59,217 bases of DNA, from positions 1-59,217 of the forward strand of contig JAZDQB010000014.1 in assembly GCA_043797205.1 (NCBI GenBank), given 5' to 3'. The DNA is from Candidatus Woesearchaeota archaeon. Its GTDB lineage: Archaea; Nanobdellota; Nanobdellia; Woesearchaeales; GW2011-AR9. A program made the translations under genes and the position numbers. The notes below the pieces were generated by a model. It worked only from the letters and a program-made list of their open reading frames with translations, was not told the origin of the DNA and did not search any database. Shown here one piece after another: positions 1-14,340 of the stretch; position 1 is the stretch's first letter, and each line of letters begins with the position of its first letter.

Positions 1-287
1 TCTTCTTTAGAAATAAGTGTGGCTACTACTGTGGCTCTCTTAGAAATTTCATCTTGATTTTTTAAGAGCACCACTATTTTATTAATTGGTTCTTGTTTTA
101 AGGTATTATAATTGATAGTGGATTGATCTAAATTAATCGTAGGAGTTTTGGCAACCACTGCTGCTCCCACTAACGCCGACCCTTCGGGACTAGTAATTTT
201 ACTTACGCTCATCACTGTTCCGATCACCGTGACTACTAAGGCTACTAAAAGCAAAGAGACGATAGTTTTGTTAGAGACCTGATCCAT
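1..287 (-). CDS. hypothetical signal-anchored protein; the 3' end lies beyond the window
   Basis: The ATG at 285-287 (minus) opens a frame that I translated by hand to the window edge without a stop. The N-terminus MDQVSNKTIVSLLLVALVVTVIGTV is a TM helix. It is absent from the ORF track because no stop is in the window. Confidence 0.4.
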   Translation of the reverse strand, partial: MDQVSNKTIVSLLLVALVVTVIGTVMSVSKITSPEGSALVGAAVVAKTPTINLDQSTINYNTLKQEPINKIVVLLKNQDEISKRATVVATLISKE

Positions 288-297
288 TTTATTTACC

Positions 298-537
298 TCA
301 TGTTTTGGTTAATACGGGTTGATGTTGATTTATAGTGGGCTCTTGAGATAAATCGATTATCATAGCTGGAGGAGCTTCTTGATTTTGTATTTCTTGTACT
401 GTAGCAATGTAGATACCTAAACTGATGATGCTTACTAGCATGACTAAAATTAAAACTAACACCACGGTGCGATTAGAAATCTCATTAGAAACCTTAAAAA
501 CTTCTCTCTTTGAACCTCTCTTCTTACCTCTAGCCAT
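298..537 (-). CDS. small single-pass membrane protein, hypothetical
   Basis: 79 aa ORF with a basic N-terminus (MARGKKRGSKRE) followed by the hydrophobic helix VVLVLILVMLVSIISLGIYI. Confidence 0.45.
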   Translation of the reverse strand: MARGKKRGSKREVFKVSNEISNRTVVLVLILVMLVSIISLGIYIATVQEIQNQEAPPAMIIDLSQEPTINQHQPVLTKT

Positions 538-560
538 AAGTGGAGTTATCCTTTTTTAGT

Positions 561-1289
561 TTATATACCTTTCGCACTCTTCTGGAGCAAATTCTGCACT
601 TTTCCAAAATTAAGAACCTCTTCTTGGTGCACAATCCACACCTCAAATTTAGAGATGTCGGTTAAGAAGGGGCTTAATAAACGTTCTTTAGCGATATCGG
701 TTCCTTCCAACAAAGGATTGAAGCTGGGCATAACAATAAGCTCTTTCTTTTTCCATTTCCCTTTCAGGAAACACTTGAATTTTTCTACTTTGCTTTTCTC
801 TTTCAGGCTGAGGGCGGGATGCTCATGTCCAATGATGATTCGCTTTACTTTTTGGGAGTCTTCTTTAATAAGTTTATCCCCGTGAATAATTAATGTGTCT
901 TGAAGAAGATACTCTTTTACTACCCTTATATTTCTCTTTTCTGCAATCGGTCCTAGAATCAGATCATGGTTGCCACGGATAAGAATAAGTTCTTGGCAGT
1001 TCTTTTGCAGAAAATCTATCACTTGTAATACTTCTTTCCATTCTTGCCTTAACACTCGGCCAAATTCGTGTTTCAAATCTCCGTTGATGATGATGGTTTT
1101 GGGGTGGACTTTCTTTAAGATTTTTTCTAACTCTTTAATAATCTCTTGAGCTTGGTATTTAGGCACTAAAACTCCTTTTTGGTGAAGGTATTCTTCGTAT
1201 CCCAGATGAAAGTCGCTCAGAATTAGAACTTTCTCTTTTTTGAACCACAGCGAAAGTCCAATGATTTCTATTCCTGGCGAAATCTCCAT
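561..1289 (-). CDS. calcineurin-like metallophosphoesterase (MJ0037/TIGR00024-like)
   Basis: Motifs LILSDFHLG, INGDLKH, RGNHD and IIGHEHP are present. I moved the start to the internal Met (MEISPGIEI, ATG at 1287-1289) because the track's upstream 48 codons run through a GC-rich tRNA-like fragment. Confidence 0.75.
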   Translation of the reverse strand: MEISPGIEIIGLSLWFKKEKVLILSDFHLGYEEYLHQKGVLVPKYQAQEIIKELEKILKKVHPKTIIINGDLKHEFGRVLRQEWKEVLQVIDFLQKNCQELILIRGNHDLILGPIAEKRNIRVVKEYLLQDTLIIHGDKLIKEDSQKVKRIIIGHEHPALSLKEKSKVEKFKCFLKGKWKKKELIVMPSFNPLLEGTDIAKERLLSPFLTDISKFEVWIVHQEEVLNFGKVQNLLQKSAKGI

Positions 1290-1342
1290 ACTCTTGAATA
1301 AAGAAGAAATCTTTATAAATAAATTGCCTCTTGATTTGCTTA

Positions 1343-1365
1343 TGCCCCAGTGGCTCAGTCTGGTT
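1343..1365 (+). repeat. 23-nt exact duplicate of the 5' end of tRNA-Asn (acceptor 5' strand plus D-arm up to GGTT)
   Basis: tgccccagtggctcagtctggtt occurs at 1343-1365 and again at 1479-1501. The first copy is followed by ~70 nt of unusually GC-rich sequence (1366-1435), and no matching 3' acceptor strand is present. Confidence 0.8.
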
Positions 1366-1479
1366 CCTCCGCGGCCAATTACGGTTGGCGTCCGTGGTGC
1401 CATCTTCGCCAACTGCGGTTTGCTCGATAGCACAGTTAACTTAATATAATATCACACAATTAAAACATCCAATTCAACT

Positions 1480-1599
1480 GCCCCAGTGGCTCAGTCTGGT
1501 TAGAGCGAATGGCTGTTATCCTCACTGGCGTTCGGGAACTTCCCGAACCTAGTTCGGTAAGTAACCATTAGACCGTCAGTTCAAATCTGACCTGGGGCG
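1480..1599 (+). tRNA. tRNA-Asn (anticodon GTT) with a 45-nt intron at the canonical 37/38 position
   Basis: Hand-folded cloverleaf. Acceptor is GCCCCAG/CTGGGGC, D-arm GCTC..GAGC, anticodon stem AATGG/CCATT with loop CTGTTA|A, and T-arm GTCAG-TTCAAAT-CTGAC with discriminator G. The intron is 1519-1563 and contains the hairpin GTTCGGG/CCCGAAC. Confidence 0.85.
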
Positions 1600-1776
1600 C
1601 ATTTCTTTTTAATAAATTTGTTAATATTAAAAAATTAAGATACTTTAATATAGAAGAATTAAAGGATGAAACTATTTTCCCGAAAATCATAATGGATAAG
1701 ATGTGGAAAGATTATAAAAACGATTTTCTTTCTATCAAGTTTATTGGCATGGATCAATAACTCCGGGGTAATGTTT

Positions 1777-2373
1777 CTACTTTTTTTTACCAATTTTAAT
1801 AGTTTGGTCAATAGACCAGATTCCCTCGTTATTTTTAATAATAGAGATAGCCTTAACCATAAAATTTTCCGAGATCTCTGGGAGGCCCTTCTTCAGCAAA
1901 GATTTGAAATTCTTCTCGTTAACATCTGGACCAGCGATAGTCAGATGAGAATTGTAGAATTCTTTAATGTAAGGGCTTCCGTATTCCAGGACATACTTTT
2001 GCTGTTTATCACCATATTTACCTTTAAGAAACGTTTCTTTAATCCAAGGGGTACGAAAATTTTTAACTAATTCCAGAAGTTCAAAGTGGACTTTTTCAGA
2101 ACCACTTGTATCGACAAAAATAATAGGTGGATCCTCGAAATGGCCAATTTTTAATAAATTGACTTCAAACGGCTCATTCCTTTCACCATATTTTTTCAGT
2201 TGGTAGATCAGTTCCTTATAATTATTTGTCCTAAATCTATGAACCAAGGTAATGTGAGGAGGAAAAGTAAGTGCCTTATGAGAATCCAAAAAAGCAGAAA
2301 TCTCTTTCATTATTTTGTTTAAATTAGTTAAAATAGGTTCCGGGGGAACTATAGCTATGAAACATTCTTCCAT
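1777..2373 (-). CDS. 2H phosphoesterase superfamily protein (LigT / 2'-5' RNA ligase-like)
   Basis: Two H-x-T/S-x motifs are present, PHITLV and SHLTIA, spaced ~95 aa apart in a 198 aa protein. Confidence 0.65.
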   Translation of the reverse strand: MEECFIAIVPPEPILTNLNKIMKEISAFLDSHKALTFPPHITLVHRFRTNNYKELIYQLKKYGERNEPFEVNLLKIGHFEDPPIIFVDTSGSEKVHFELLELVKNFRTPWIKETFLKGKYGDKQQKYVLEYGSPYIKEFYNSHLTIAGPDVNEKNFKSLLKKGLPEISENFMVKAISIIKNNEGIWSIDQTIKIGKKK

Positions 2374-2456
2374 AGTTATACGAAACAGTAGATATTCTTA
2401 AATTTTTGCTCTTTATGACATAATCTTTAAATATTAGTGCTACCTCATAGTGATTA

Positions 2457-3830
2457 ATGGCCCTAATATCCTATAATCCCTACACTGGGAAGATTATTGG
2501 AGAAGTACCCGAGACCGAGTTAAGTTCTTTAGAGGAAATATTCGCTTTAGGGAAAAGAAGCCAATCGCTCTGGAGTAAGCTGCCACTTGAACAGAGATCT
2601 TCACGATTAGAACAATTACCTAATTTAATTATAGAACGCATTAACCAAATAGTTGATGTTTTGATTGAAGAAGCAGGAATGCCTATAAGTGAGGCCAGAT
2701 CTTCAACAACTAAACTGATAGATAGGATTAAATTTCTTACTGTCAAATGCCCAGAATTTTTGAGGAATGAAGAAGTTAATTTAAAGGATGGTCGTTTAAA
2801 CAATACCACTTATCAACCAGTCGGTACTGTAGCGGCAGTCATGCCTTGGAATCATCCTTTTATGATTCCTTTTTGGACTTTTATTCCCGCCTTAATTGCC
2901 GGAAATAATGTTATCTATAAGCCTTCAGAATTAACTCCATTTATCGGAAAAGAAATCGAAGAAATTTTCTCTAAGTTAGGATTACCGGAAGGACTTTTTA
3001 GTACCGTTTATGGGGGTGGAAAAATGGGAAGGTATTTAAGTTCTGCTGCTCAGGTAAATATGGTTTCTTTTGCTGGTTCTGTTAGAGTAGGCATGAATAT
3101 TTATCAAGAAGCGGCCGGAAATATGAAACGGCTGATTCTAGAAAACGGAGGGAAAGATGCCTTAGTTGTTGGGCACTGTAAAGATTCAGAAAAAGTAACA
3201 GAACAGATTTTATTGGGCTTTTTAAGACATGCAGGTCAATTATGTTCTTCTGTAAGGAGAGTTTACGTTGTAGAAGACCAGTACGAAAAATATATAGAAT
3301 TATTAAAAGAGAGAATTATCACTTATAAAGTAGGTAATCCAAAGGATGAAGAAACAATAGTTGGTCCATTAAAATCAGAAAGGCAAGTTAACACCCTAGA
3401 TTCACAGATAGAAGATGCTCTATCTCTAGGTGGATCAATAGCCTATCAAGGAAAAGAGAGATCCGGACAACTTTATCCACCTACTATAATTACGAATGCC
3501 TCTCCCGAAATGAAAGTGGTTGATCAAGAAACATTCGGTCCTCTACTTCCAGTTGTGCGTGTAAAGAATCTTCAGGAAGCTGCAATTTATGTGAATCATT
3601 CTTCATTCGGATTAAACGCCTCAATCTGGGAGGATAATTTAGATGAAGCGATTAAACTTGCAGCTAATATCGATGTGGGTACTGTTTGTATTAATATGCT
3701 TCCAGGAACACATAATTACTGTACTTGGCATGGCGTTAAAATGAGTGGTGTAGGTAATATTCTTTCTCCTGAAGGAGTACGTCAATTTACCAATCGTAAG
3801 AATATTCGCTATTTTGGTGAAAAACAATAA
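2457..3830 (+). CDS. NAD(P)-dependent aldehyde dehydrogenase family protein
   Basis: Motifs KPSELTP, ENGGKDA (E-x-GGK), GQLCSS (catalytic Cys) and QETFGPLLPV are present in a 457 aa protein. Confidence 0.85.
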   Translation: MALISYNPYTGKIIGEVPETELSSLEEIFALGKRSQSLWSKLPLEQRSSRLEQLPNLIIERINQIVDVLIEEAGMPISEARSSTTKLIDRIKFLTVKCPEFLRNEEVNLKDGRLNNTTYQPVGTVAAVMPWNHPFMIPFWTFIPALIAGNNVIYKPSELTPFIGKEIEEIFSKLGLPEGLFSTVYGGGKMGRYLSSAAQVNMVSFAGSVRVGMNIYQEAAGNMKRLILENGGKDALVVGHCKDSEKVTEQILLGFLRHAGQLCSSVRRVYVVEDQYEKYIELLKERIITYKVGNPKDEETIVGPLKSERQVNTLDSQIEDALSLGGSIAYQGKERSGQLYPPTIITNASPEMKVVDQETFGPLLPVVRVKNLQEAAIYVNHSSFGLNASIWEDNLDEAIKLAANIDVGTVCINMLPGTHNYCTWHGVKMSGVGNILSPEGVRQFTNRKNIRYFGEKQ

Positions 3831-4585
3831 TGAGTAAAATTAAGATCCAGGAAGGGATTGAACAGATCGTTAGAGATTCTATAGATCTAGTAGAGGATAA
3901 CCTAAAAGGAATAATTCTTTTTGGAAGCATGAACAATGATGATTTTGTAGAAGGAATTTCTGATGTAGATTTAATATATATCTTAGGAAAAATTGATACT
4001 AACTCACTAAATATTCTTGGTGGCTTGCGAAATGCAGGAAAACAATATACTGGCTGCAAAGTAGACATAAAACCTTTTACTTTAAGTGAATTTAATGCTG
4101 CTGTGCGCGGAATTAGCAGTTTTGAGTTTTTTACTGGATGGGGTCTTGAAATGATTCGGTCCGGAAAACAAAGGTGTTTATATCACTCTTCTGAACTTTC
4201 ATTGGAATATACCATTGATAAATCTAGACTAAAAAAGGATGCATTGGAAAGAGCCCACTACTATATTACCAAATTAAGAAAGGTTATTTCTTCAGATGAA
4301 CAACTATTAATTAGAGGAGAAAGAAGAAAAGTGGAGGGAAATGAGTTTTTGAAAGTAGCAGCTTCTTCAGTTAAAAACGTTTTAAGGTTTTGTCTCGCGT
4401 ATAGAAGAATCGTTACTGATGATTGTGCTTCTATCTTAGTTGGAAGTACTAAATACTTAGGTAATGTAGAAGATATTGCCCTTTTCTTAAGTTCTAGAAA
4501 TAATAACAGTTGGAATCAAGAGATGATGTTTAAAGCATACGATCAAGTTGAACAAATTTATCGTTCGGTGATAGAAAATGGCTAA
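3830..4585 (+). CDS. nucleotidyltransferase-fold protein (Pol-beta-like NTase with helical C-terminal domain)
   Basis: The G-S..D-x-D signature ILFGSMNNDDFVEGISDVDLIYIL is present. The start shares position 3830 with the ALDH stop (TAATG junction). Confidence 0.6.
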   Translation: MSKIKIQEGIEQIVRDSIDLVEDNLKGIILFGSMNNDDFVEGISDVDLIYILGKIDTNSLNILGGLRNAGKQYTGCKVDIKPFTLSEFNAAVRGISSFEFFTGWGLEMIRSGKQRCLYHSSELSLEYTIDKSRLKKDALERAHYYITKLRKVISSDEQLLIRGERRKVEGNEFLKVAASSVKNVLRFCLAYRRIVTDDCASILVGSTKYLGNVEDIALFLSSRNNNSWNQEMMFKAYDQVEQIYRSVIENG

Positions 4586-5951
4586 AAGAAAAGTAGCAAT
4601 AATTGGTGCAGGTCCAGCGGGATTGGGAGCAGCATATTATTTTGCATGTAACTCTTCTAATCTAGATGTTACTGTTATCGACCAAGGAAAAATAATCGGC
4701 GAAAGAAATTGTTGTAAGGATTGCCAGAACCATCATTGTAATCCTTGTTATTCCTTGTCTGGACTTGGTGGGGCGGGGGGATTTACAGATGGAAAATTAA
4801 ATTTTCATCCCACTGTCGGTGGACGTTTAAATCAATTGGGTTTATCTAATCTTGAAGCAAATCACTTGATGGATGAGATTTATCACGGTATGTATGAATC
4901 ACATGCTCCTGTGCCTTTTAGAGAAGTTTCAGTTAATCTGGATGAGGAAAGAAAGTTATTGCAAAGAGCTGATGAGCTGGGCATCAGATATATTCCATTA
5001 AGACAAAAGCATATTGGAAGTGACAATTTACCTACTCTAATGAATAATTTGTTCCTTAATTTAGTTAGTAAAGGTATACAATTTAGGTTTAAGACAAAAG
5101 TGGAAGATATTTTATTAGAAGGAAATACTTCTTATGGTATTGTTACTTCTTTTGGTCAGGAACATTTTGATGCAGTAATTCTATGCCCCGGGAGAGCCGG
5201 TCATGAATGGGTAATCCAACTTGCAGAAAAATATAATATTACACATAAATTTAATGAAGTGGATATTGGAATTAGAGTTGAGATCCCTGAATCTGTTTAT
5301 AGAGACATTGTTGATGTTAATTATGATCCAAAATTTGTTATTCATTTAGGAGAAGAAAGAAAAGTAAGAACTTTTTGTACAAATCCAAAAGGGTTTGTTG
5401 TTTATGAGAGGTATCCGGATATTGTTGGAGTAAATGGTCATTCTTTCCTCAACCGTTTTTCAAGCAACACCAATTTCGCATTATTAAATTCAACATATGT
5501 TATTCCCACTGAAGGAGAGAATAGTTATTCCTATGCAAAGAATCTTGCGAAAAAAATAACTGGAGCAACGAATGGAAGAATATTATTACAGAAAATCGGA
5601 GACTTAAGAAGCAGAAAAACCAGCGTGCCTTATTTTGAAAAAGTTATCCCTTCTTTAACTGATGTATGTTTAATGGATTTAAATGAGTTCTATCCCACAG
5701 ACATTGTTGAAAATCTATTGTGCGGACTAGAATTATTAGATCGACTTGTCCCTGGAGTAAATGATAAGAATAATCTAGTCTATGCTCCAGAGATTAAATA
5801 TCGTTGTATGAGGGTATTGGTAGGAGATAGTTTAGAGAGTTCGGTTAAAAATTTATATTTTGCTGGAGATGGTGCTGGACTTTCTGGCGATTTGCTTCAT
5901 TCTTCTGTAACTGGATGGTTAGCGGGTAAAGGAGTTGATAATCATGGATAA
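4578..5951 (+). CDS. FAD-dependent oxidoreductase (COG2509-like uncharacterized dehydrogenase)
   Basis: N-terminal dinucleotide fold KVAIIGAGPAGLGAAYY, plus GLGGAGGFTDGKLNF and a C-terminal AGDGAGLSG motif. Confidence 0.7.
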   Translation: MAKRKVAIIGAGPAGLGAAYYFACNSSNLDVTVIDQGKIIGERNCCKDCQNHHCNPCYSLSGLGGAGGFTDGKLNFHPTVGGRLNQLGLSNLEANHLMDEIYHGMYESHAPVPFREVSVNLDEERKLLQRADELGIRYIPLRQKHIGSDNLPTLMNNLFLNLVSKGIQFRFKTKVEDILLEGNTSYGIVTSFGQEHFDAVILCPGRAGHEWVIQLAEKYNITHKFNEVDIGIRVEIPESVYRDIVDVNYDPKFVIHLGEERKVRTFCTNPKGFVVYERYPDIVGVNGHSFLNRFSSNTNFALLNSTYVIPTEGENSYSYAKNLAKKITGATNGRILLQKIGDLRSRKTSVPYFEKVIPSLTDVCLMDLNEFYPTDIVENLLCGLELLDRLVPGVNDKNNLVYAPEIKYRCMRVLVGDSLESSVKNLYFAGDGAGLSGDLLHSSVTGWLAGKGVDNHG

Positions 5952-6483
5952 GCCCATAATTTTGATTGGTGGAACTGCGGGAACAGGTAAAACTACTTTA
6001 GCACAAGACTTATGCTCTAAATTACAGATAGATCATCGTTTAGGAACAGGTTTTATACGAGAAATAATTAGATCTCAAACGACACCGCAACAAGAACCAT
6101 CACTATTTGAATATACATTTAGAGCAAATGATCCAATAATCCATTTTGTTTATCAATCGGAAAGGATATATGGTGCAATTAATGCTTGCATTAATAGAGT
6201 TAAAAGAGAAGGAACTTCTCTAATCATAGAGGGAAACCACTTAATCCCTTCTCTTTATTCTAATCTTGATGTTAATCTTTATCTAGTATTATCTGCTCCA
6301 GATTTAGAAACTCACATGAAACAGCTTCAAGGAACAACTCATGTCACAAGGATACTCAATTCAAATGATGTGCAAAACATAAGATGTATTGGAGATTATC
6401 TTAAAAGGGAGTGCAATCGTTTATCTATCCCTTATCTTCCGTATCCAAGAACCATTAATGATATTTTGAGATTAATAAAATGA
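5935..6483 (+). CDS. P-loop kinase, 2-phosphoglycerate-kinase-like
   Basis: Walker A GGTAGTGKTT followed by LGTGFIREIIR, which resembles the 2PGK-family segment. The start is ambiguous between 5935 and 5944. Confidence 0.45.
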   Translation: MIIMDKPIILIGGTAGTGKTTLAQDLCSKLQIDHRLGTGFIREIIRSQTTPQQEPSLFEYTFRANDPIIHFVYQSERIYGAINACINRVKREGTSLIIEGNHLIPSLYSNLDVNLYLVLSAPDLETHMKQLQGTTHVTRILNSNDVQNIRCIGDYLKRECNRLSIPYLPYPRTINDILRLIK

Positions 6484-7376
6484 TAAATAATCTAATTAAC
6501 GAGTTAGTACAAAAATATTGTGGTTCGGAAGTAACATCTATTATTGAAATTTTCGGAGGTTATAGGAATAAAGTCTATCACGTTTATACCAATAATGGAG
6601 AGCTTATTATAAAAAAGCACCGTCCTTTCAGGGATAAAGATGATTTTAAGAACGAAGTTAACGCTTATAAAATGCTCGGAGAGTACGGATGCAGGATACC
6701 CTCGTTCCTTTTTGCAGATGATGCTGAAAGGATATTAGGAATACAAAAGCTTAATGGAGGAACATTAGAGGAGAAGCAACCTGTGGATTATTATTTAGAA
6801 ACAATAAACTTGATTTCTGATACTTATCAAAAAACTAAACATTTAGTAAATGATGGAACTTTATCTTTCAGAAGATTACCGGAAGAGATATTTGAAGGGA
6901 TACAGTTACTTGAAGCAAATGGTGGGTTTAATCTATCAGAATCATTTAGAAATTATGCTCAAAGATGTTATGATATGTTAGCTAAAACACCTACTCGACT
7001 ATCCATCGGTTCGTTTATTCCTTCTAATGTTATTCGATTGACTCAGGACTACCATATTGACTTAGAATTGGTGTCTTTTGGTCGTCCAAGTGATGATTTG
7101 GCTTATTTTAGCTTATATTCCGGAGTAAATATATTTAAAGTTCCTACGGATTCACTAGTAAGTTTAGATATTCCTGAAGATCTTTTTTTGGCATCGATGA
7201 TGCATTTAGGCACATTGGCTTCGGGAATTTATCTTTCCGACCTAAAAGAGAATTTGGGAGAAGAACAGAGAAAAATGATTCGAAGAAGAATCAACAATTT
7301 TAGTTCCGTTTTGTTCGAATTAGGAAAACCGGGGTTTGAAGAATTGGCCGAGCGTTTAGAAAAGAAAAAATGGTAA
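6480..7376 (+). CDS. aminoglycoside/choline-kinase-like phosphotransferase fold protein (APH family), catalytic loop apparently degenerate
   Basis: It has a Gly-rich N-lobe (FGGYRNKVYHV, IIKKH) and a C-lobe HIDLELVSFGRPSDDLAYF (IDxE..DLA pattern). The expected H-x-D-x4-N loop reads IGSFIPSN. Confidence 0.5.
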   Translation: MINNLINELVQKYCGSEVTSIIEIFGGYRNKVYHVYTNNGELIIKKHRPFRDKDDFKNEVNAYKMLGEYGCRIPSFLFADDAERILGIQKLNGGTLEEKQPVDYYLETINLISDTYQKTKHLVNDGTLSFRRLPEEIFEGIQLLEANGGFNLSESFRNYAQRCYDMLAKTPTRLSIGSFIPSNVIRLTQDYHIDLELVSFGRPSDDLAYFSLYSGVNIFKVPTDSLVSLDIPEDLFLASMMHLGTLASGIYLSDLKENLGEEQRKMIRRRINNFSSVLFELGKPGFEELAERLEKKKW

Positions 7377-8230
7377 ACATCTGTAGAATTGGAGTTGTAC
7401 GAAACGAAGAGGATATTATAGAAAGAAATTTACGTTGGTATATTGATCAAGGATTTCCAACAATTATCTTAGATAACGGTTCTACTGATAGAACTTATGA
7501 TATCTGTCAAAGTTACTTGGGAAAGGGAATTGTGGATATAAATCAGATTACTTTTCAAGAGCATGATCGTGAACTATCGCTTAAGGAGCTGGGTCTTATT
7601 ACCCAGAGACATGGTTTTGAATGGTTATTATTGGCAGATGTTGATGAATTTTATGAGTCTCCAATTCCTGGAGAATCCTTAAGAAGCTCATTATCTGAAG
7701 AAATAGGTAAGGCATATAATATCGTTCAGTTTCACAATATGGAATTCTGGATGACTGATAAAGATAGATTAAACGAACCAGATCCCATTAAAAGGATAAA
7801 TCATTATTCCTATTTTGACAGTAATAGATACAAACTGTTCCCTAACGTTCCCGGCATAGATTTCTGGACCAAATTGGGACATGTTCCCATCTTGCCAAGC
7901 GGAATAGAATATACCATTTCTTCCAAAATACATATTAGCAGACATTATAAATTTCGCAGTATTGAACAGGGTTTAGAGAAAATTTCTCGGATACGTCCTT
8001 CACTCAGAAGAAAGGACACCAGCTTTCATTATGCCAAATTTACTTCGGATGAAAGTTTTTTTATTATACCCTACCAGCTGCTAAATGAGTATCATGAAGA
8101 TGGTAATTGGAATTTGAATAGAACTTTTGATGGTCATCGCATGAATAAACAGGAAATGATGAGTTATTTAAGAATCTCTAATGAAGATGATTTCCAAACT
8201 TGGATGAAATCTCGGGGTTTAGGAAAATGA
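7370..8230 (+). CDS. glycosyltransferase family 2-like protein
   Basis: LDNGSTDRTYDI (D-x-GS-x-D-x-T) and a DVDEF DxD-type motif are present. Confidence 0.6.
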   Translation: MVNICRIGVVRNEEDIIERNLRWYIDQGFPTIILDNGSTDRTYDICQSYLGKGIVDINQITFQEHDRELSLKELGLITQRHGFEWLLLADVDEFYESPIPGESLRSSLSEEIGKAYNIVQFHNMEFWMTDKDRLNEPDPIKRINHYSYFDSNRYKLFPNVPGIDFWTKLGHVPILPSGIEYTISSKIHISRHYKFRSIEQGLEKISRIRPSLRRKDTSFHYAKFTSDESFFIIPYQLLNEYHEDGNWNLNRTFDGHRMNKQEMMSYLRISNEDDFQTWMKSRGLGK

Positions 8231-8841
8231 GAATCTATCTTGTCCGACATGGTGAAACAGATTGGAATCTGGAGATGAGAATACAAGGAAAGACAGATGT
8301 TCCTTTAAATACCTTGGGAATAACACAAGCTGAAGAATGTGCGATGTTTTTTAGAGAGAATAGATTTGATTATGTCTATTCTTCCGGTCTAAAAAGAGCC
8401 ATTACCACTGCCCAGATCATTTCTAATGGTAAAATGCCTATCAGAACTTATGCCGAACTTAATGAAAGAAATTTTGGAGAGTGGGAAACCCGTCTTTGGT
8501 CAGAAGTTCGTAGAAATAACCCCTGCTTAAAAGAAGAATGGAAAATTATGGGTAATAAGTACCAACCTCCTGAGGGAGAATCCATTTTAGATATGACTAA
8601 TAGAGTGATAATAAAATTTAAAGAGATAATTGGTAGTCATTGCGATCATGATTCAATTCTGATAGTTTCTCATGGTGGACCTATTAAAGTAATGGTCGGA
8701 CATGCTAGTGGTTTAGATGAATATGTTTCTTATAATACCTTAAAAATGGATAATTGTAGTATTAATATTATAGATTATCACGATAACTTATTCAATGTGG
8801 AGAGGACTAATTATGTTTATAAACAATTTATTAACTGTTAA
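8227..8841 (+). CDS. histidine phosphatase (phosphoglycerate mutase-like) family protein
   Basis: MRIYLVRHGETDWN (RHG motif) and VSHGGPI are present. I chose the start at the ATGA overlap with the upstream stop rather than the track start at 8200. Confidence 0.8.
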   Translation: MRIYLVRHGETDWNLEMRIQGKTDVPLNTLGITQAEECAMFFRENRFDYVYSSGLKRAITTAQIISNGKMPIRTYAELNERNFGEWETRLWSEVRRNNPCLKEEWKIMGNKYQPPEGESILDMTNRVIIKFKEIIGSHCDHDSILIVSHGGPIKVMVGHASGLDEYVSYNTLKMDNCSINIIDYHDNLFNVERTNYVYKQFINC

Positions 8842-9562
8842 GGGTTGGAAAGATAATTCTCCTGAATTAATGGTCAAATTATTAGGAGAAAGATCTTCAA
8901 CTATGGAAACAGAGCTGATTAGAAGAGTTATGGGGGAAACTGCACGTTACTCCGAGAAAACATGGAAAAGGGGTGCGGACAAATACGATGCGTTTGATAT
9001 CCACCATGAAATCTCATTACGAAAGAAACCTTTGCGTATCTTGGATGTTGGTTGTGGAGATGCATTTGTTTTTTCTGAATTGAAAAGTAAATATGGATTA
9101 GCGATAGAATGTTATGGAATTAGTGTGATGGAACACCCTCATTTGGAAGATATAAATTATTTAATCTGTCCAGCGGAGATTATGCCTCAAGAATGGGATA
9201 ATTTCTTTGATATTATATTAACACATCAGACATTTTGTTACATGATTAATCCAATTAGTGCTTTAGGAGAATGTGTTCGAGTACTTAAGAAAGGCGGTAT
9301 TTTTGGAGGATATATTGGAACTATTGATCACGAAAAAAGATTGTTTTATAATCCCAATTTATCCGATGAATTAAATCAAGAAGTAGAAAGAACTATCTCT
9401 TCGAATAGGGAAAGATATAATCATAACTTCAATAAAGTATTATCTGATTTCCCCTTTGGTTTTACTGCGGAAGTCTTGTATGGTCAAAAAGGTTTTCCTC
9501 ATAAGATATACCTGGTTAAAACAGACGAAGATAAGATTATCAAGGATTATATCTCCTACTAA
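8795..9562 (+). CDS. class I SAM-dependent methyltransferase
   Basis: Motif I ILDVGCGDAFVF and post-I/II segments are present. The start is uncertain, with alternative Mets at 8813 and 8870. Confidence 0.7.
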   Translation: MWRGLIMFINNLLTVKGWKDNSPELMVKLLGERSSTMETELIRRVMGETARYSEKTWKRGADKYDAFDIHHEISLRKKPLRILDVGCGDAFVFSELKSKYGLAIECYGISVMEHPHLEDINYLICPAEIMPQEWDNFFDIILTHQTFCYMINPISALGECVRVLKKGGIFGGYIGTIDHEKRLFYNPNLSDELNQEVERTISSNRERYNHNFNKVLSDFPFGFTAEVLYGQKGFPHKIYLVKTDEDKIIKDYISY

Positions 9563-9622
9563 TTTAATTCCAAGTCAATATTTAAAATTAGTGTGGTATT
9601 CTCAAACTTCGTTTACTTAGTT

Positions 9623-9889
9623 CTACCATTTAATCAAAGCTGATTCATAAATCTCTTTAGAAGTTCTTTCCATAAACACTACATCTTCACATTCTTTGAA
9701 CATCAGTTCTCCGTGCGAGTGTACTACGATTTCAATTCCATTTACTTTAATTACCAAAAGAATGGGTGTCTCCAGAATAGTTTCATATCTCTTACGAATC
9801 TTGAGCAGGTCCAGCTTTCCTTTCTGCTGCAATTTAGCCGAATAAGCTGCTCGAGTCTTGCATTTCCCTAAGGTGAATTTTATGGGCAT
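9623..9889 (-). CDS. hypothetical protein (88 aa)
   Basis: An ORF with no motif I recognise securely. It is an isolated minus-strand gene. Confidence 0.4.
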   Translation of the reverse strand: MPIKFTLGKCKTRAAYSAKLQQKGKLDLLKIRKRYETILETPILLVIKVNGIEIVVHSHGELMFKECEDVVFMERTSKEIYESALIKW

Positions 9890-9919
9890 AAGCTGTAAAA
9901 TGAATCTCCATTTAAAAAA

Positions 9920-11797
9920 TTAGCTAATTTCTACTTGAAAAGCGTAATCCTGATAGGGAGGGATAAGTCCTGGAAAAACAATCCATTCAAATTCTCCGTC
10001 ATTCCAGTGGAAGTTATTGTTAGTGAGGGGATCGCTACCATAAATATTCAAAAAGTTACTTATCTTAATGTTTTGGTTCATCGTGCGAGGAATTTTAACT
10101 AGGCAAGCACTCCCTGAATTAAGGAAATGATTTACACTATCATAAGAACTAATTATTACAAAATTATTGTTCTCCGTAGTAGAGTTAAACATAATCGTAA
10201 CATCGTAGAGGTAAGTGTTATTTTTTAAAGAAGGGACTATCTTCTTGATGCAAGTATTAACCTCTTCTTTCTTTTTAGAAACTTTGAGGGCAGGATCGCC
10301 AAACAACACCCAATAACTCATTTGAATATCAACATATTTCTTGGTGAATGGATCCGTTATTAATGAATCAATAAGAGAATATTTATTTTTATATTCCTTT
10401 AAAGCAATTCCTATACTCTCTGAATGAAGCAGAGATTCAGAAATAAGTTCGTTTTCGGGGAAGAAACTACTAGAAGCAATAACTCCTTCCCCGATATAAG
10501 ATAATGCTCCCGACTTAAGGTAGGATAAGGCGATGGAGGTGTTAATTTCTCCTTTAATTTCATAATCTTCTCCTGTCGAGAGGATCGAATTAAAAAGGGG
10601 TTCCTTGTTGTTCGGTACTCCATTAATTCTAATCGTAATACAAGAATCAGCTATCAACAATGCGGCATTAGTCTTGAAAGGTATTTCTTGGTAGAATGTC
10701 CCGCTCGTGCAACCGAATCCACCATTAGTATTGTTTCCTCCCTCCTGAAAACACTTTTCTTCCTCGACATCATACTCTTCTGGTTTGAATATTCCGATAA
10801 ATTCATTTTTACAACTGCAATTAATTGCTTCTCCGTCGTCTTTCATCCCGATAGCTCCGCTTAAGTTTCCTTTGATATATTCATTTCCTGAAAAAAACAT
10901 TTTGTCGGGCTGACCATGAACATTAAACCATAAAACTTGGTTGTCTTGACTATACTGAATCACTTTATCCATGGTGTGTTCCTCGACACCTACTTCCTCA
11001 CAGGTATAACTAGCAAAACCAACATCCGTATTTATACATCCTACCTTAATATTTAAAGAAGTACCACTAAATTTATTTAGCAATTCATTTTTTCGAAGTG
11101 GCATATAGATAGAGAAATCTTCGGGGGTTTTGTAGGCAAGAATTCGGTTAACATATTCGTAAGCGTCAGCTTCATTAAAGGAAGTAATAACTCCATAAGC
11201 AACGTCCAGAAAAATATCCGAATCAATTTCTCTTAATTTATGATCCAAATTGAACAGGAAATCTGGATTTAACTCTTCTGGAGCAGCTACCATCGCAAGA
11301 TATTTTGGTTTGTTTGATTTTAATTTGTTCAATAAATCGTTCAAATCAATATACTTAATCAATTGAGCTTTCTTACCTGCTGTAAAGACTTCTGCTACTT
11401 TAGAAAAATTTGATCCTTCTTTTACTGCTACGATATACTTCTCTGGTGCGCAGCGGGAATTTTCACAAGAAAAACCAGCAGGGCAATTTTTAGAGAGGCT
11501 AAGAATATTTTTATTCCTGCTGCAATAGAATTCCATGACCTGGCTGGAATCAATGCAATAATCCGACTTAACGGCAAATTTTCCGTTGAACATACCGCGA
11601 GTAGTTCCCGCTTTGTCTAAGATAATCCCATTATCCGAATCCACACATTTAGATTCGTCCCAAGCGGGAAGAATTTTGATGCTGTTAGTAGGAATAGCCG
11701 GCCTAAAAGCCATTCCGGTAGGATTAACAAAAACTAAAGAAAAAACTCCTATCAGAATTAAGAATATCGCCGCAAATCCTATCACCACTAGTTTCAT
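9920..11797 (-). CDS. secreted or anchored protein with a possible clan CD (gingipain/caspase-fold) peptidase core
   Basis: The N-terminal TM is MKLVVIGFAAIFLILIGVFSLVFV. A His-Gly follows a hydrophobic strand (VLWFNVHGQPD) and a Cys follows a hydrophobic strand ~85 aa later (ALLIADSCIT). Confidence 0.4.
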   Translation of the reverse strand: MKLVVIGFAAIFLILIGVFSLVFVNPTGMAFRPAIPTNSIKILPAWDESKCVDSDNGIILDKAGTTRGMFNGKFAVKSDYCIDSSQVMEFYCSRNKNILSLSKNCPAGFSCENSRCAPEKYIVAVKEGSNFSKVAEVFTAGKKAQLIKYIDLNDLLNKLKSNKPKYLAMVAAPEELNPDFLFNLDHKLREIDSDIFLDVAYGVITSFNEADAYEYVNRILAYKTPEDFSIYMPLRKNELLNKFSGTSLNIKVGCINTDVGFASYTCEEVGVEEHTMDKVIQYSQDNQVLWFNVHGQPDKMFFSGNEYIKGNLSGAIGMKDDGEAINCSCKNEFIGIFKPEEYDVEEEKCFQEGGNNTNGGFGCTSGTFYQEIPFKTNAALLIADSCITIRINGVPNNKEPLFNSILSTGEDYEIKGEINTSIALSYLKSGALSYIGEGVIASSSFFPENELISESLLHSESIGIALKEYKNKYSLIDSLITDPFTKKYVDIQMSYWVLFGDPALKVSKKKEEVNTCIKKIVPSLKNNTYLYDVTIMFNSTTENNNFVIISSYDSVNHFLNSGSACLVKIPRTMNQNIKISNFLNIYGSDPLTNNNFHWNDGEFEWIVFPGLIPPYQDYAFQVEIS

Positions 11798-11875
11798 ATC
11801 CCAAGAAGACCTCTTTTGATATATAAAGTCTGCGCTTCCAATAAATATTTAAACCAGCAATTCCGAGGTATAATT

Positions 11876-12982: not shown

Positions 12983-13021
12983 TTAGTTAAAATTACTTAT
13001 TCTTAAAATTATTATTTAATT

Positions 13022-13801
13022 CTATTCCAATAAGGTCATCGCTAGCATCAATCCGATTCCCAGCAGCATGAACAAAAAGGGCCAGATGGATTTCTGCCAG
13101 AAGGTTTCTTTGGTATTACATTCTCGATGTAATTCTGGAATTAAATCTGAACTAGCGATATAAATAAATCCGCCAATAGCGAAAGGAATGATTAAAGAGA
13201 TAAAATTTTGGGAATAACTGCCCCATACTAAACCGATGACCGCTCCGATTACGGCAATCAAAGCGGAAAGAAAATTCATTAACAAGGCCTTACCTTTTGA
13301 CCATCCGGAATACAATAATACTCCAAAGTCGCCAATCTCTTGAGGAACTTCATGCAGAACTACAGCAATAGTGGTAGCGATTCCAGTAGGAATACTGACC
13401 AAGTAACTGGTAGCGATAATAATTCCGTCCATGAGATTGTGCACACCATCACCAATAAGGTTCATCGTAGCGAGATGATGGGGATGTCCTTCATGAGTAG
13501 CATGATGACAATGACGCCAATGCACAAATTTTTCCACAAGGAAAAACAACAAAATTCCACCAATAATGGCTAGAGCAGTAGTGGTAGTAAACCCTTTTTC
13601 TTCGATAGCTTCGGGAAGAAGATGCAAGAATGCTCCTCCTAATAGCGATCCAGCAGATAAGCTCACTAATAATAATAAGAATCGATCCAACTTTTCTTGC
13701 TTAAATAATAAGGATATTACTCCTACTAAAGACATCAAGGAGACGATAATGACACTAGCAAAAGTGTAAAGGATGATGGAATACATTCTTAATAACCTCA
13801 A
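13022..13801 (-). CDS. ZIP family divalent metal transporter (ZupT-like)
   Basis: HEVPQEIGDFGVL signature, the His-rich loop HCHHATHEGHPHH, and multiple TM helices. Confidence 0.85.
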   Translation of the reverse strand: MRLLRMYSIILYTFASVIIVSLMSLVGVISLLFKQEKLDRFLLLLVSLSAGSLLGGAFLHLLPEAIEEKGFTTTTALAIIGGILLFFLVEKFVHWRHCHHATHEGHPHHLATMNLIGDGVHNLMDGIIIATSYLVSIPTGIATTIAVVLHEVPQEIGDFGVLLYSGWSKGKALLMNFLSALIAVIGAVIGLVWGSYSQNFISLIIPFAIGGFIYIASSDLIPELHRECNTKETFWQKSIWPFLFMLLGIGLMLAMTLLE

Positions 13802-13861
13802 CTGTTATTTTTGATTAAATGTCCTTTACTTTAAATACTTTACTAACTTTTTTAGAAAAGT

Positions 13862-13877
13862 TTAATAACTTTATTAA
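13862..13877. promoter_or_regulatory. inverted repeat TTAATAA-CT-TTATTAA in the divergent ZIP/NikR intergenic region (candidate operator)
   Basis: A perfect 7-nt arm palindrome read directly from the sequence. It is AT-rich, so chance occurrence is possible. Confidence 0.25.
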
Positions 13878-14311: not shown

Positions 14312-14340
14312 GATTATTCTGGTGTAGGTCTCCAGTTCTC

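What the first reader, a model, noticed from the sequence alone, without database searches (positions are those of the whole stretch)
2457..9562. Eight-gene, overlap-coupled operon of small-molecule-modifying enzymes with no obvious known pathway
The gene order is:

1. aldehyde dehydrogenase
2. Pol-beta-type nucleotidyltransferase
3. COG2509-type FAD dehydrogenase
4. 2PGK-like P-loop kinase
5. APH-fold kinase-like protein
6. GT2 glycosyltransferase
7. histidine phosphatase
8. SAM methyltransferase

All are on one strand, and nearly every junction overlaps: 3830, 4578-4585, 5935-5951, 6480-6483, 7370-7376, 8227-8230 and 8795-8841.

The combination of oxidise, phosphorylate, nucleotidylate, glycosylate, dephosphorylate and methylate looks like activation and decoration of a sugar, polyol or lipid head-group, or of a secondary metabolite. 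I know of no described pathway with this exact set. It is a large metabolic investment for what otherwise looks like a reduced genome.
Basis: partly seen in the sequence, partly recalled or inferred. Interest (0 to 1): 0.6.

Follow-up and report, generated by a model that had tools for sequence, protein, structure and literature searches.

The report
Mobile sugar-activation gene island in DPANN archaeon
The eight overlapping enzyme genes are real and, with a ninth gene upstream, form a rare 8-kb island that a few Woesearchaeota carry and their closest relatives lack; it most likely phosphorylates, nucleotide-activates, transfers and dephosphorylates a small sugar-like molecule, but the product is unknown and no described pathway matches.

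Summary
Observation confirmed. Eight same-strand ORFs lie at 2457-9562. All seven junctions overlap, against 12 of 35 elsewhere in the window.

The functional unit differs from the one described. A divergent 2H phosphoesterase gene (1777-2373) belongs to it. Five genes recur in every full copy recovered with DNA: an ANT-fold nucleotidyltransferase, a short 2PGK-type P-loop kinase, an APH/choline-kinase-like protein, a GT-A glycosyltransferase and a histidine phosphatase. ALDH, the COG2509 flavoenzyme, the methyltransferase and 2H are interchangeable accessories. Other copies carry GAPDH, two radical-SAM/SPASM enzymes, a NodU-type carbamoyltransferase or AP_endonuc_2 instead.

A same-genus genome is collinear on both sides at about 89.5% identity. 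It has 0.9 kb with an IS200 transposase where the window has 8.0 kb (1612-9638), starting 12 nt after a tRNA. The marker NTase was found in none of 400 other genomes of the class.

The NTase and kinase occur fused. A kinase homolog elsewhere is coupled to an unrelated MobA-type NTase. No curated family, defence model or paper found explains the set.

Best reading: a mobile activation-and-transfer pathway for a sugar, polyol or hydroxy-acid, with variable tailoring.

The parts
It marks the left edge of the island.
   Evidence: Rfam RF00005, 57 bits; ARAGORN misses it. Homology to the same-genus contig G402:C90 ends at 1611, 12 nt after the tRNA.
1612..9638 (.). 8.0-kb variable island: the 2H gene plus the eight-gene operon.
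   Evidence: blastn of the window against G402:C90 matches 1-1611 and 9639-14335 at about 89.5% identity. The 8027 bp between are replaced by 904 bp carrying an IS200-type transposase. Island GC is 0.340 against 0.376 for the rest of the window.
1777..2373 (-). 2H (LigT-like) phosphoesterase, divergently transcribed. It is an accessory member of the type-A form of the cluster.
   Evidence: Pfam 2_5_RNA_ligase2 1.8e-10, LigT_PEase, and DUF1045 weakly. Both HxT motifs are invariant (H39xT41, H142xT144). It lies upstream and divergent in every type-A locus.
2374..2456 (.). 83-bp divergent intergenic region. It holds a TATA-like TTTAAATA at 2426-2433, about 27 nt before the ALDH ATG, which suggests a leaderless operon transcript (inference).
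   Evidence: Sequence read. Nothing was tested beyond reading the sequence.
2457..3830 (+). Aldehyde dehydrogenase (accessory, first gene of the operon).
   Evidence: Aldedh 1e-121. Generic: AldA, GAPN and SSADH all score about 1e-61. The catalytic Cys sits in GQLC, not the GQRC of the S. mutans GAPN aligned in the same output. Absent in L006 and L010; replaced by a type-I GAPDH in L012.
3830..4585 (+). Pol-beta-superfamily nucleotidyltransferase with a two-domain ANT-type fold (core).
   Evidence: Invariant G-S...D-x-D...D. AlphaFold pLDDT 93. Foldseek top hits are ANT(4'), ANT(9) and AadA, prob 1.0, TM 0.45-0.58. Found fused to the P-loop kinase in P0093 and P0096 (hhalign 99.6%).
4578..5951 (+). 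COG2509-type FAD-dependent oxidoreductase (recurrent accessory, always next to the NTase gene).
   Evidence: DAO plus FAD-depend_C. The only PDB relative is the uncharacterised 3NLC, 1.8e-19. Present in the window, L040, the contig, L068 and L012.
5944..6483 (+). Short 2PGK-family (COG2074-type) P-loop kinase (core). The longest ORF starts at TTG 5935.
   Evidence: NF003259 2PGK 2e-24, matching profile positions 94-271 only; mevalonate-3-phosphate 5-kinase 6e-13. Invariant Walker A, HRxGTGFIRE and EGNHL. 64 representative clusters at E<1e-30.
6480..7376 (+). APH/choline-kinase-fold protein with Ser in place of the catalytic-loop Asp (core).
   Evidence: K45, E59, N183 and D194xE196 are invariant. 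The residue at N-5 is Ser in the window clade, L010 and L012, and Asp in L006 and L011. The best PDB relative is LicA choline kinase, 2e-7. The nearest named Atlas cluster is choline/ethanolamine kinase.
7370..8230 (+). GT-A-fold (GT2-like) glycosyltransferase (core).
   Evidence: PF13704 1.6e-10. Invariant DNGSTD and ADADEF. pLDDT 94.7. Foldseek hits are SunS/ThuS, TarS, SpsA and WrtF. A 33%-identical homolog lies in an ordinary polysaccharide cluster.
8227..8841 (+). Branch-1 histidine phosphatase, short form (core). The longest ORF starts at TTG 8200.
   Evidence: His_Phos_1 3e-56. The nearest PDB relatives are PhoE, CobC, PspA and GpgP. RHGE and SHGG are present. It remains paired with the GT even in the minimal locus L015.
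8795..9562 (+). Class-I SAM-dependent methyltransferase (accessory, last gene).
   Evidence: Methyltransf_11 4e-11. Motif I is LDVGCGDA. PDB relatives are weak (LahSB 6e-5, BamL). Present in L002, L004, L008, L017 and L040; absent in L006 and L011.

Best explanation
The locus is a horizontally mobile, Woesearchaeota-restricted biosynthetic island of about 8 kb, lying next to a tRNA gene.

Its conserved core is a five-enzyme pathway that activates and transfers a small hydroxylated molecule (sugar, polyol or hydroxy-acid).
- The APH/choline-kinase-like protein and the short 2PGK-type P-loop kinase install phosphate. Both characterised enzymes of the 2PGK family turn a monophosphate into a bisphosphate.
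- The histidine phosphatase removes one phosphate.
- The ANT-fold nucleotidyltransferase, which is functionally coupled to the P-loop kinase, joins the molecule to a nucleotide.
- The GT-A enzyme transfers the activated moiety to an acceptor.

This is the kinase / phosphatase / nucleotidyltransferase / glycosyltransferase logic of ADP-heptose-type and synthase-plus-phosphatase pathways, built from non-homologous parts.

Lineage-specific tailoring enzymes then diversify the product. In the window these are ALDH, the COG2509 flavoenzyme, the SAM methyltransferase and the 2H phosphoesterase. Elsewhere they are GAPDH, two rSAM/SPASM enzymes, a carbamoyltransferase and AP_endonuc_2.

Shown: the operon, the island, the core-versus-accessory pattern, the kinase-NTase coupling, the folds and the intact motifs. 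Inferred: the order of steps, the substrate class, and that the product is a glycoside or glycoconjugate.
For: - Operon: 7 of 7 junctions overlap.
- Conservation: the same five families co-occur in every full cluster recovered with DNA, down to 42-49% identity and in different flanking contexts. L040 repeats the window's nine-gene layout at 49% kinase identity.
- Island: there is an 8.0-kb indel against a collinear same-genus genome, which has an IS200 transposase at that site. The NTase was found in 0 of 400 other genomes of the class. The GT family was found in 0 of 6 same-genus genomes. Only 2 of 185,579 species genomes were hit.
- Kinase-NTase coupling: P0093 and P0096 are full-length fusions, and L108 shows the fusion arose inside a type-A cluster. 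In L066 and L070 a kinase homolog overlaps a MobA/GlmU-N-type sugar- or polyol-phosphate NTase of unrelated fold.
- In L016 the fusion gene lies between CTP synthase and an HD phosphohydrolase plus a GT2, which is the same logic with different parts.
- The GT and the phosphatase stay paired even in the minimal locus L015.
- Folds: the NTase resembles small-molecule O-nucleotidyltransferases. The GT is a DxD GT-A enzyme.
- The accessory enzymes are of the kinds that decorate sugars: NodU-type O-carbamoyltransferase, MTase, AP_endonuc_2.
Against: - No substrate is identified, and no enzyme reaches a curated equivalog cut-off.
- ANT-fold enzymes are known to nucleotidylate hydroxyls, not to make NDP-sugars from sugar phosphates, so the NTase step may differ from the model.
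- The APH-like protein has Ser for the catalytic Asp in most copies and may not be a kinase.
- One locus (P0044) lacks the NTase.
- Other members of the kinase family are fused to an RNA-ligase-like domain or a G1P-dehydrogenase-like domain, so the family's substrates are diverse.
- The role of the 2H phosphoesterase is unexplained.
- There are no expression data.
Confidence: 0.55

Rival explanations
1. A xenobiotic-modification (antibiotic resistance or detoxification) island. The ANT-fold and APH-fold enzymes, helped by the GT and MTase, inactivate an aminoglycoside-like or similar compound met in the environment.
For: The NTase's closest structures are aminoglycoside nucleotidyltransferases. 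The APH fold is the aminoglycoside and macrolide kinase fold. The locus is a rare mobile island, as resistance loci often are.
Against: Sequence similarity to real ANT and APH enzymes is marginal (E 0.14 to AadA; APH below the Pfam cut-off). Resistance enzymes normally act alone, but here five enzymes are translationally coupled, co-conserved and partly fused. The phosphatase would undo phosphorylation. ALDH or GAPDH, the rSAM enzymes and the carbamoyltransferase are biosynthetic-type accessories.
Confidence: 0.12
2. A peptide- or protein-modification system (RiPP-like, or surface-protein glycosylation). The SunS-like GT glycosylates a peptide or an S-layer or archaellin protein, and the kinase, NTase, MTase and rSAM/SPASM enzymes act as further maturases.
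For: The top fold hits of the GT are the glycocin S-glycosyltransferases SunS and ThuS, and its best sequence hit is GmaR, which on background knowledge is a flagellin O-GlcNAc transferase. The MTase's nearest PDB relatives are RiPP methyltransferases (LahSB, BamL). Type-B copies have two rSAM/SPASM enzymes. Bud32/RIO-type protein kinases appear among the weak APH-like hits.
Against: No conserved small ORF lies in or next to any type-A cluster, and the operon junctions leave no room for one. The only conserved small ORF (57 aa, type B) is hydrophobic, of low complexity, and less conserved than its neighbours. The fold and sequence hits are generic GT-A and class-I MTase matches (TM 0.4-0.5; E 6e-5). 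A 2PGK-type kinase, ALDH or GAPDH and a histidine phosphatase are not RiPP-type enzymes.
Confidence: 0.1
3. An RNA- or nucleotide-end processing or repair module. The 2H phosphoesterase opens cyclic phosphates, the kinase and phosphatase heal the ends, the NTase adds nucleotides and the MTase caps, in the way Pnkp/Hen1-type systems work.
For: 2H enzymes act on 2',3'-cyclic phosphates, which is family knowledge (Pfam assignment). One kinase homolog (P0129) is fused to an archaeal RNA-ligase-like domain (TIGR01209, 1.4e-14). The island abuts a tRNA gene.
Against: The 2H gene and the MTase are accessories, absent from type-B copies. The core includes a GT-A glycosyltransferase and an APH-like protein. 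ALDH, the FAD enzyme, the rSAM enzymes and the carbamoyltransferase have no role in RNA repair. The NTase fold is ANT-type, not a CCA-adding, poly(A) or ligase type. tRNA adjacency is not general: only one of eight other loci has a tRNA, and it is 1.3 kb away. The tRNA region is shared with the island-free relative.
Confidence: 0.06
4. A patch for lower glycolysis. ALDH or GAPDH makes phosphoglycerate, the 2PGK-type kinase makes 2,3-bisphosphoglycerate, and the histidine phosphatase is a cofactor-dependent phosphoglycerate mutase.
For: All three families have glycolytic namesakes. GAPDH replaces ALDH at the first position of the operon in L012. GAPDH also lies upstream of the kinase in L066 and L070.
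Against: The ALDH has Leu where the aligned S. mutans GAPN has Arg next to the catalytic Cys. The phosphatase is nearest to the phosphatases PhoE, CobC and PspA, not to dPGM. The kinase lacks the N-terminal third of true 2PGK and scores far below its cut-off. The NTase, GT and APH-like proteins are core members with no glycolytic role. The island is missing from all six same-genus genomes searched, which does not fit a central-metabolism function.
Confidence: 0.05

Closest known systems
Nucleotide-activated heptose pathway (GmhA, HldE or HldA/HldC, GmhB, heptosyltransferase); comparison from background knowledge
   Same: It has the same set of activities: a kinase makes a bisphosphate, a phosphatase trims it, a nucleotidyltransferase activates the sugar-1-phosphate and a glycosyltransferase transfers it. 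The kinase and NTase are fused in HldE, as the kinase and NTase are fused here in P0093 and P0096.
   Different: Every enzyme here has a different fold: P-loop 2PGK-type and APH-type kinases instead of PfkB or GHMP, a histidine phosphatase instead of HAD, and a Pol-beta/ANT-type NTase instead of the cytidylyltransferase or GlmU type. There is no isomerase, there are two kinases, the substrate is unknown, and the system is archaeal and on an island.
Two-step 'synthase plus phosphatase' glycoside pathways (GpgS/GpgP, MpgS/MpgP, OtsA/OtsB, GgpS/GgpP)
   Same: A GT-A enzyme is tightly paired with a phosphatase; they are still adjacent in the minimal locus L015. Mycobacterial GpgP is also a histidine phosphatase (PMC3240985) and is among the PDB relatives (4pz9, 5e-14). 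ALDH or GAPDH could supply a C3 acid.
   Different: The GT is not GT81, GT55 or GT78: no GpgS or MpgS appears among the top 50 fold hits and there is no NCBIfam hit. PhoE and CobC are closer to the phosphatase than GpgP is. Those pathways need no dedicated kinases or NTase, and they do not carry rSAM, FAD or carbamoyl tailoring enzymes.
Aminoglycoside O-nucleotidyltransferases ANT(4'), ANT(9) and AadA
   Same: The two-domain architecture, the length (about 250 aa) and the Pol-beta catalytic carboxylates match. They are the best structural matches.
   Different: Sequence identity is only 11-14% and the profile E-value is 0.14. This enzyme sits in, and is sometimes fused into, a multi-enzyme operon. 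The invariant ERAHYYxTKLRK helix is specific to this family.
2-phosphoglycerate kinase and mevalonate-3-phosphate 5-kinase (COG2074 family)
   Same: These are the best family matches (2e-24 and 6e-13). The Walker A, HRxGTGFIRE-type and EG(N/V)HL-type motifs are shared.
   Different: The match covers only the kinase core (profile positions 94-271 of 306) and scores 86 bits against a cut-off of 343. In the representative search the short forms of about 180 aa separate from the 300-aa 2PGK-type proteins.
F420 side-chain assembly (CofA aldehyde dehydrogenase, the proposed lactate kinase CofB, CofC, CofD; PMC6450877)
   Same: The formal logic matches: aldehyde to acid, then phospho-acid, then NDP-activated acid, then transfer. 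An ALDH begins the operon, and a kinase-NTase couple follows.
   Different: There are no CofC, CofD, CofE or FrhB homologs in the recovered genome. The NTase is Pol-beta type, not MobA type. The rSAM enzymes of type-B copies do not list CofG or CofH among the best 25 NCBIfam matches shown.

Membership tests
2-phosphoglycerate kinase (NCBIfam NF003259 / COG2074) | Whole-protein score above the curated cut-off (343 bits) | tested here: not met
   86.5 bits, E 2e-24.
2-phosphoglycerate kinase (NCBIfam NF003259 / COG2074) | Full architecture, including the N-terminal region of about 90 aa in the profile | tested here: not met
   The match covers profile positions 94-271 of 306, and the protein is about 180 aa. 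The 300-aa forms appear only below about 1e-30.
2-phosphoglycerate kinase (NCBIfam NF003259 / COG2074) | P-loop (Walker A) and conserved kinase-core motifs | tested here: met
   GGTAGTGKTT, HRLGTGFIRE and EGNHL are invariant in A4.
Aminoglycoside nucleotidyltransferase (ANT(4')/ANT(9)/AadA type) | Pol-beta catalytic motif G-S...D-x-D plus a third carboxylate | tested here: met
   G32, S33, D45, D47 and D79 are invariant in 19 sequences.
Aminoglycoside nucleotidyltransferase (ANT(4')/ANT(9)/AadA type) | Two-domain fold: N-terminal NTase domain plus C-terminal helical domain | tested here: met
   pLDDT 93. Foldseek prob 1.0, TM 0.45-0.58 to 6un8, 1kan, 6xz0 and 4cs6.
Aminoglycoside nucleotidyltransferase (ANT(4')/ANT(9)/AadA type) | Significant sequence-profile membership | tested here: not met
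   Best profile E-values against the PDB are 0.024 (the minimal NTase 2rff) and 0.14 (AadA).
Aminoglycoside nucleotidyltransferase (ANT(4')/ANT(9)/AadA type) | An aminoglycoside as substrate | not testable with these tools
   This needs an enzyme assay.
APH / choline-kinase phosphotransferases (PF01636) | ATP-binding Lys and Glu, and the Mg-binding N and D-x-E | tested here: met
   K45, E59, N183, D194 and E196 are invariant or nearly invariant.
APH / choline-kinase phosphotransferases (PF01636) | Catalytic-loop Asp of the H-x-D-x4-N (Brenner) motif | tested here: not met
   The window reads G-S-F-I-P-S-N, with Ser178. Asp occurs only in L006 and L011.
APH / choline-kinase phosphotransferases (PF01636) | Pfam score above the gathering threshold | tested here: not met
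   19.6 bits against 23.2 for the window protein. Several homologs do carry precomputed PF01636 hits.
GT-A glycosyltransferases (GT2-like, PF13704) | Pfam score above threshold, the DxD motif and a GT-A fold | tested here: met
   41.8 bits against 27.5. D90xD92 and DNGSTD are invariant. Foldseek prob 1.0 to SunS, TarS and SpsA.
Glycosyl-3-phosphoglycerate synthase/phosphatase pathways (GpgS/GpgP, MpgS/MpgP) | The GT belongs to GT81, GT55 or GT78 | tested here: not met
   No such chain is among the top 50 fold hits. No NCBIfam hit for the GT.
Glycosyl-3-phosphoglycerate synthase/phosphatase pathways (GpgS/GpgP, MpgS/MpgP) | A phosphatase specific for glycosyl-3-phosphoglycerate | tested here: inconclusive
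   GpgP (4pz9) is a relative at 5e-14, but PhoE (4e-22) and CobC (2e-19) are closer.
F420 biosynthesis (CofC/CofD/CofE) | Presence of CofD, CofE or F420-dependent enzymes in the genome | tested here: not met
   PF01933, PF01996 and PF04432 give no match in G000, which is 68% complete; the controls respond.
Known anti-phage defence systems (PADLOC-DB 2.0) | A significant match of any member to a defence-system model | tested here: not met
   Only generic P-loop, NTase and MTase motif hits, with E 1.6e-5 at best.
RiPP biosynthetic clusters | A precursor-peptide gene in or beside the cluster | tested here: not met
   No conserved small ORF lies near the type-A clusters. The 57-aa ORF of type B is doubtful.
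Genomic island | Presence/absence polymorphism between close relatives with conserved flanks, at a tRNA or mobile-element site | tested here: met
   Flanking direct repeats (att sites) were not found.

The most novel reading that the evidence does not exclude
The island encodes a previously undescribed route to a nucleotide-activated metabolite. An ANT-fold enzyme serves as a biosynthetic nucleotidyltransferase, coupled (and sometimes fused) to a 2PGK-type kinase. The product would be a new glycoside, phosphodiester solute or cell-surface decoration that a subset of DPANN symbionts acquire horizontally, perhaps to alter how they interact with hosts or viruses. Aminoglycoside-resistance-type folds would then have a native biosynthetic role in archaea.
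Probability: 0.25. Interest if true: 0.75.

Novelty: new variant of a known kind. Interest (0 to 1): 0.55.

Why it matters
DPANN archaea are thought to have minimal biosynthetic capacity and to depend on hosts. This would be a self-contained, horizontally mobile multi-enzyme pathway that only a few lineages carry, with swappable tailoring enzymes in the manner of a natural-product or surface-glycan cluster. Such a pathway could be a strain-level accessory trait in these organisms.

It also gives a physiological context to three poorly understood enzyme groups: ANT-fold nucleotidyltransferases outside antibiotic resistance, short 2PGK-type kinases, and COG2509 flavoenzymes.

The kinase-NTase fusions and the displacement of the NTase by an enzyme of unrelated fold give a concrete biochemical hypothesis that can be tested.

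Tried and rejected
- Missing canonical NTase. PF00483 is not found in this 68%-complete bin, which suggested the cluster might supply a missing NDP-sugar enzyme. All 6 same-genus and 15 of 15 same-family genomes have it, so the absence is probably incompleteness. I dropped the argument.
- Betaine or choline route (ethanolamine kinase, phospho-base MTase, phosphatase, FAD oxidase, BADH). The FAD enzyme is COG2509 (3NLC), not a GMC choline oxidase. The MTase shows no PMT-like hit. These three genes are accessories, not core.
- F420-type pathway. No CofD, CofE or FrhB was found.
- GAPN-type ALDH. It has Leu, not Arg, before the catalytic Cys.
- Defence system. PADLOC gave nothing.
- Virus-borne cluster. 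No relative of the GT or NTase was found in IMG/VR.
- General tRNA adjacency of the cluster. Only L011 has a tRNA, 1.3 kb away.
- att-type direct repeats flanking the island. None were found. The 23-nt tRNA 5'-fragment repeat lies upstream, within the region shared with G402.
- RiPP precursor search. Negative for type A.
- Expression. No RNA holder is listed for this stretch. Only small DNA shares in groundwater metagenomes were found, and I did not lay them.
- Earlier scan notes, searched by sequence. Nothing was found.
- Stand-alone kinase homologs in high-GC soil contigs (47-53% identity). Their neighbours (luciferase-like monooxygenase, chlorite-dismutase-like protein, ABC ATPase, hydrolase) gave no functional lead.
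- Structure atlas search for the NTase. It returned only uncharacterised bacterial two-domain NTases and a DUF4254 family.

Full report
OBSERVATION

The eight ORFs are at the stated coordinates on the + strand.

- aldehyde dehydrogenase;
- a Pol-beta-type nucleotidyltransferase;
- a COG2509-type FAD enzyme, whose only solved relative is the uncharacterised 3NLC;
- a 2PGK-like P-loop kinase;
- an APH-fold protein;
- a GT2-like glycosyltransferase;
- a branch-1 histidine phosphatase;
- a class-I SAM methyltransferase.

All seven junctions overlap. Elsewhere in the same window only 12 of 35 same-strand junctions overlap, so 7 of 7 is unlikely by chance (P about 6e-4).

Homolog alignments suggest two starts are ATG 5944 and ATG 8227, not the upstream TTGs. 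That still leaves overlaps of 8 and 4 nt.

Catalytic motifs are intact in all members except the APH-like protein, which has Ser at the catalytic-loop Asp position.

ORGANISM

Homolog names and record titles point to Candidatus Woesearchaeota, a DPANN lineage. The bin is 0.99 Mb at 68% completeness. Same-genus genomes are 1.3-1.6 Mb.

THE REAL UNIT

I fetched contigs encoding homologs and scanned 97 loci with HMMs built from each cluster family. This recovered at least 14 distinct copies of the cluster.

Five families co-occur in every full copy recovered with DNA: the NTase, the P-loop kinase, the APH-like protein, the GT and the histidine phosphatase. The remaining genes vary.
- Type A: 2H(-) | ALDH, NTase, [FAD], P-loop, APH, GT, HisPhos, [MTase]. 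Examples are the window, L002, L004, L017, L008, L011 and L040. L006 lacks ALDH and the MTase.
- Type B: the GT on the opposite strand, then rSAM/SPASM, P-loop, APH, rSAM/SPASM, NTase, HisPhos. Examples are L010 and L072.
- Hybrids: L012 adds a type-I GAPDH in place of ALDH, the FAD enzyme, a NodU-type carbamoyltransferase and an AP_endonuc_2 protein. L068 combines ALDH and FAD with the two rSAM genes.

L040 reproduces the window's complete nine-gene layout at only about 49% kinase identity.

The FAD gene, when present, is always adjacent to the NTase gene.

The divergent 2H phosphoesterase, with both HxT motifs intact, accompanies every type-A copy, in otherwise unrelated flanks.

Reduced forms also exist. 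One locus has P-loop, APH, GT and HisPhos without the NTase. Another has only the GT + HisPhos pair.

A 33%-identical GT homolog lies in an ordinary surface-polysaccharide cluster.

AN ISLAND

Contig C90 of a same-genus genome (G402, 92% complete) is collinear with the window at about 89.5% nucleotide identity over window 1-1611 and 9639-14335.

The 8,027 bp between those segments hold exactly the 2H gene plus the eight-gene operon. In G402 they are replaced by 904 bp that encode an IS200-type transposase.

The left edge is 12 nt after a 120-nt tRNA gene. The island's GC is 0.340, against 0.376 for the rest of the window.

The cluster is rare:
- The NTase profile found no match in 400 other genomes of the same class, including 10 near-complete genomes of the same family.
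- The GT profile found none in six same-genus genomes.
- A pattern scan of 185,579 species genomes returned two, both Woesearchaeota.
- It was not found on viral contigs.
- tRNA adjacency is not general among the other copies.
- No flanking direct repeats were seen.

HOW THE PARTS CONNECT

The strongest functional link is between the P-loop kinase and the NTase.
- Two natural proteins (P0093, P0096) are full-length fusions of the two (hhalign probability 99.6%).
- In L108 the fusion follows an ALDH gene, so it arose inside a type-A cluster.
- In L066 and L070 a kinase homolog overlaps a MobA/GlmU-N-type nucleotidyltransferase, a fold unrelated to Pol-beta. That enzyme's best curated matches are sugar-1-phosphate and inositol-phosphate nucleotidyltransferases.
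- In L016 the fusion gene overlaps an upstream CTP synthase gene and is followed by an HD phosphohydrolase and a GT2.

The combination of kinase, NTase, phosphatase and GT therefore recurs with non-homologous parts. This argues for a conserved chemical logic, not a chance neighbourhood.

Each core enzyme in turn:
- Kinase. It belongs to the 2PGK / mevalonate-3-phosphate-5-kinase family but is a distinct short form. From background knowledge, both characterised enzymes of that family convert a monophosphate to a bisphosphate.
- NTase. The model (pLDDT 93) is closest to the two-domain aminoglycoside O-nucleotidyltransferases.
- GT. The model (pLDDT 94.7) is a DxD GT-A enzyme nearest to SunS/ThuS, TarS and SpsA.
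- Phosphatase. It is nearest to PhoE, CobC, PspA and GpgP.
- APH-like protein. It is nearest to the LicA choline kinase. Its structural look-alikes include bacterial APH-NTase fusions.

MOST LIKELY MECHANISM (INFERRED)

Two kinases phosphorylate a small hydroxylated molecule. The histidine phosphatase trims one phosphate. The NTase links the molecule to a nucleotide. The GT-A enzyme transfers the activated group to an acceptor.

Accessory enzymes then oxidise it (FAD enzyme, ALDH or GAPDH), methylate it, carbamoylate it, rearrange it (rSAM, AP_endonuc_2), or open cyclic phosphates (2H).

The closest known logic is the ADP-heptose type (kinase, phosphatase, NTase, GT, with a fused kinase-NTase) and the 'synthase plus phosphatase' glycoside pathways. 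None of the enzymes here is homologous to those of these pathways.

I put 0.55 on this general reading. The order of steps and the substrate class are not established.

RIVALS

- Xenobiotic modification (0.12). It fits the ANT and APH folds and the island status. It does not fit a five-enzyme, partly fused, co-conserved operon that includes a phosphatase and biosynthetic accessories.
- Peptide or protein modification (0.10). It fits the SunS-like GT, the RiPP-like MTase relatives and the rSAM/SPASM enzymes. No precursor ORF exists in type-A clusters.
- RNA-end processing (0.06). It fits the 2H enzyme, the kinase, the NTase, the MTase and one RNA-ligase-kinase fusion. The 2H gene and the MTase are accessories, and the core includes a GT.
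- A glycolytic patch (0.05). The ALDH active site, the phosphatase's affinities and the island's absence from close relatives all argue against it.

KNOWN PATHWAYS

None matches.
- No NCBIfam equivalog is above its cut-off.
- There is no PADLOC system.
- No F420 genes were found.
- There is no GpgS/MpgS-type GT.
- There is no choline-oxidase-type flavoenzyme or PMT-type MTase.
- Three literature searches returned nothing describing this set.

VERDICT

It is a new variant of a known kind of system, namely nucleotide-activation and transfer pathways with tailoring enzymes. It is of moderate interest because DPANN archaea are not expected to carry such accessory biosynthesis, and because it offers a native role for ANT-fold and short 2PGK-type enzymes.

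Noticed in passing
L107 (G402:C90) 15586-16101: In the same-genus genome the site downstream of the tRNA holds an IS200/IS605-type Y1 transposase (PF01797, 9e-25) where the window has the 8-kb island. The spot is therefore an insertion hotspot.
   Followed up: yes
window 1343-1365 and 1479-1501: There is an exact 23-nt duplicate of the tRNA 5' end 136 nt upstream of the tRNA (family D4). It lies within window 1-1611, which aligns with the island-free relative at about 89.5%. This suggests the duplicate predates the island and is not its att site. I did not check that G402 carries the repeat itself.
   Followed up: partly
L066 9998-11283; L070 9998-11234: On low-GC contigs a short 2PGK-type kinase (about 40% identical) is translationally coupled to a MobA/GlmU-N-type nucleotidyltransferase, with a GAPDH gene about 1.5 kb upstream. 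This is a second, independent kinase-NTase pairing, without the rest of the cluster.
   Followed up: partly
P0129, P0134 (representative proteins): Other fusions of the same kinase family exist. One has an archaeal RNA-ligase-like domain (TIGR01209, 1.4e-14). One has a glycerol-1-phosphate-dehydrogenase-like domain (NF002022, 3e-33). Multi-kinase proteins of 1000-2400 aa also occur.
   Followed up: partly
L019, L025-L038, L048-L051, L061 (e.g. L050 9989-10594): Stand-alone short 2PGK-type kinases, 47-53% identical to the window's, are common on high-GC (0.54-0.71) contigs, one of them 1.7 Mb long, mostly from samples I took to be soil metagenomes. None has any other cluster gene nearby. Their function is unknown.
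   Followed up: partly
L010 4516-4689; L072 8709-8882; L073 3933-4106: A conserved 57-aa hydrophobic ORF lies just upstream of the first rSAM/SPASM gene in type-B clusters. It is 60% identical between L010 and L072, less than the adjacent rSAM gene (69%). It may be a small membrane peptide or simply a conserved leader region.
   Followed up: partly
L016 864-1865; locus of P0044: A polyprenyl synthase gene lies close to two divergent versions of the cluster: directly upstream in the P0044 locus, and about 3.7 kb upstream on the opposite strand in L016. This may be coincidence or a hint of a lipid-linked acceptor.
   Followed up: no
L002 2811-6617: A 1268-aa T2SSE-type secretion ATPase gene carries an intein with a LAGLIDADG endonuclease (precomputed Pfam hits). 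It lies in the flank of another copy of the cluster.
   Followed up: no
window 1480-1599: The 120-nt tRNA is found by Rfam (57 bits) but missed by ARAGORN. That fits a tRNA with an archaeal intron.
   Followed up: partly
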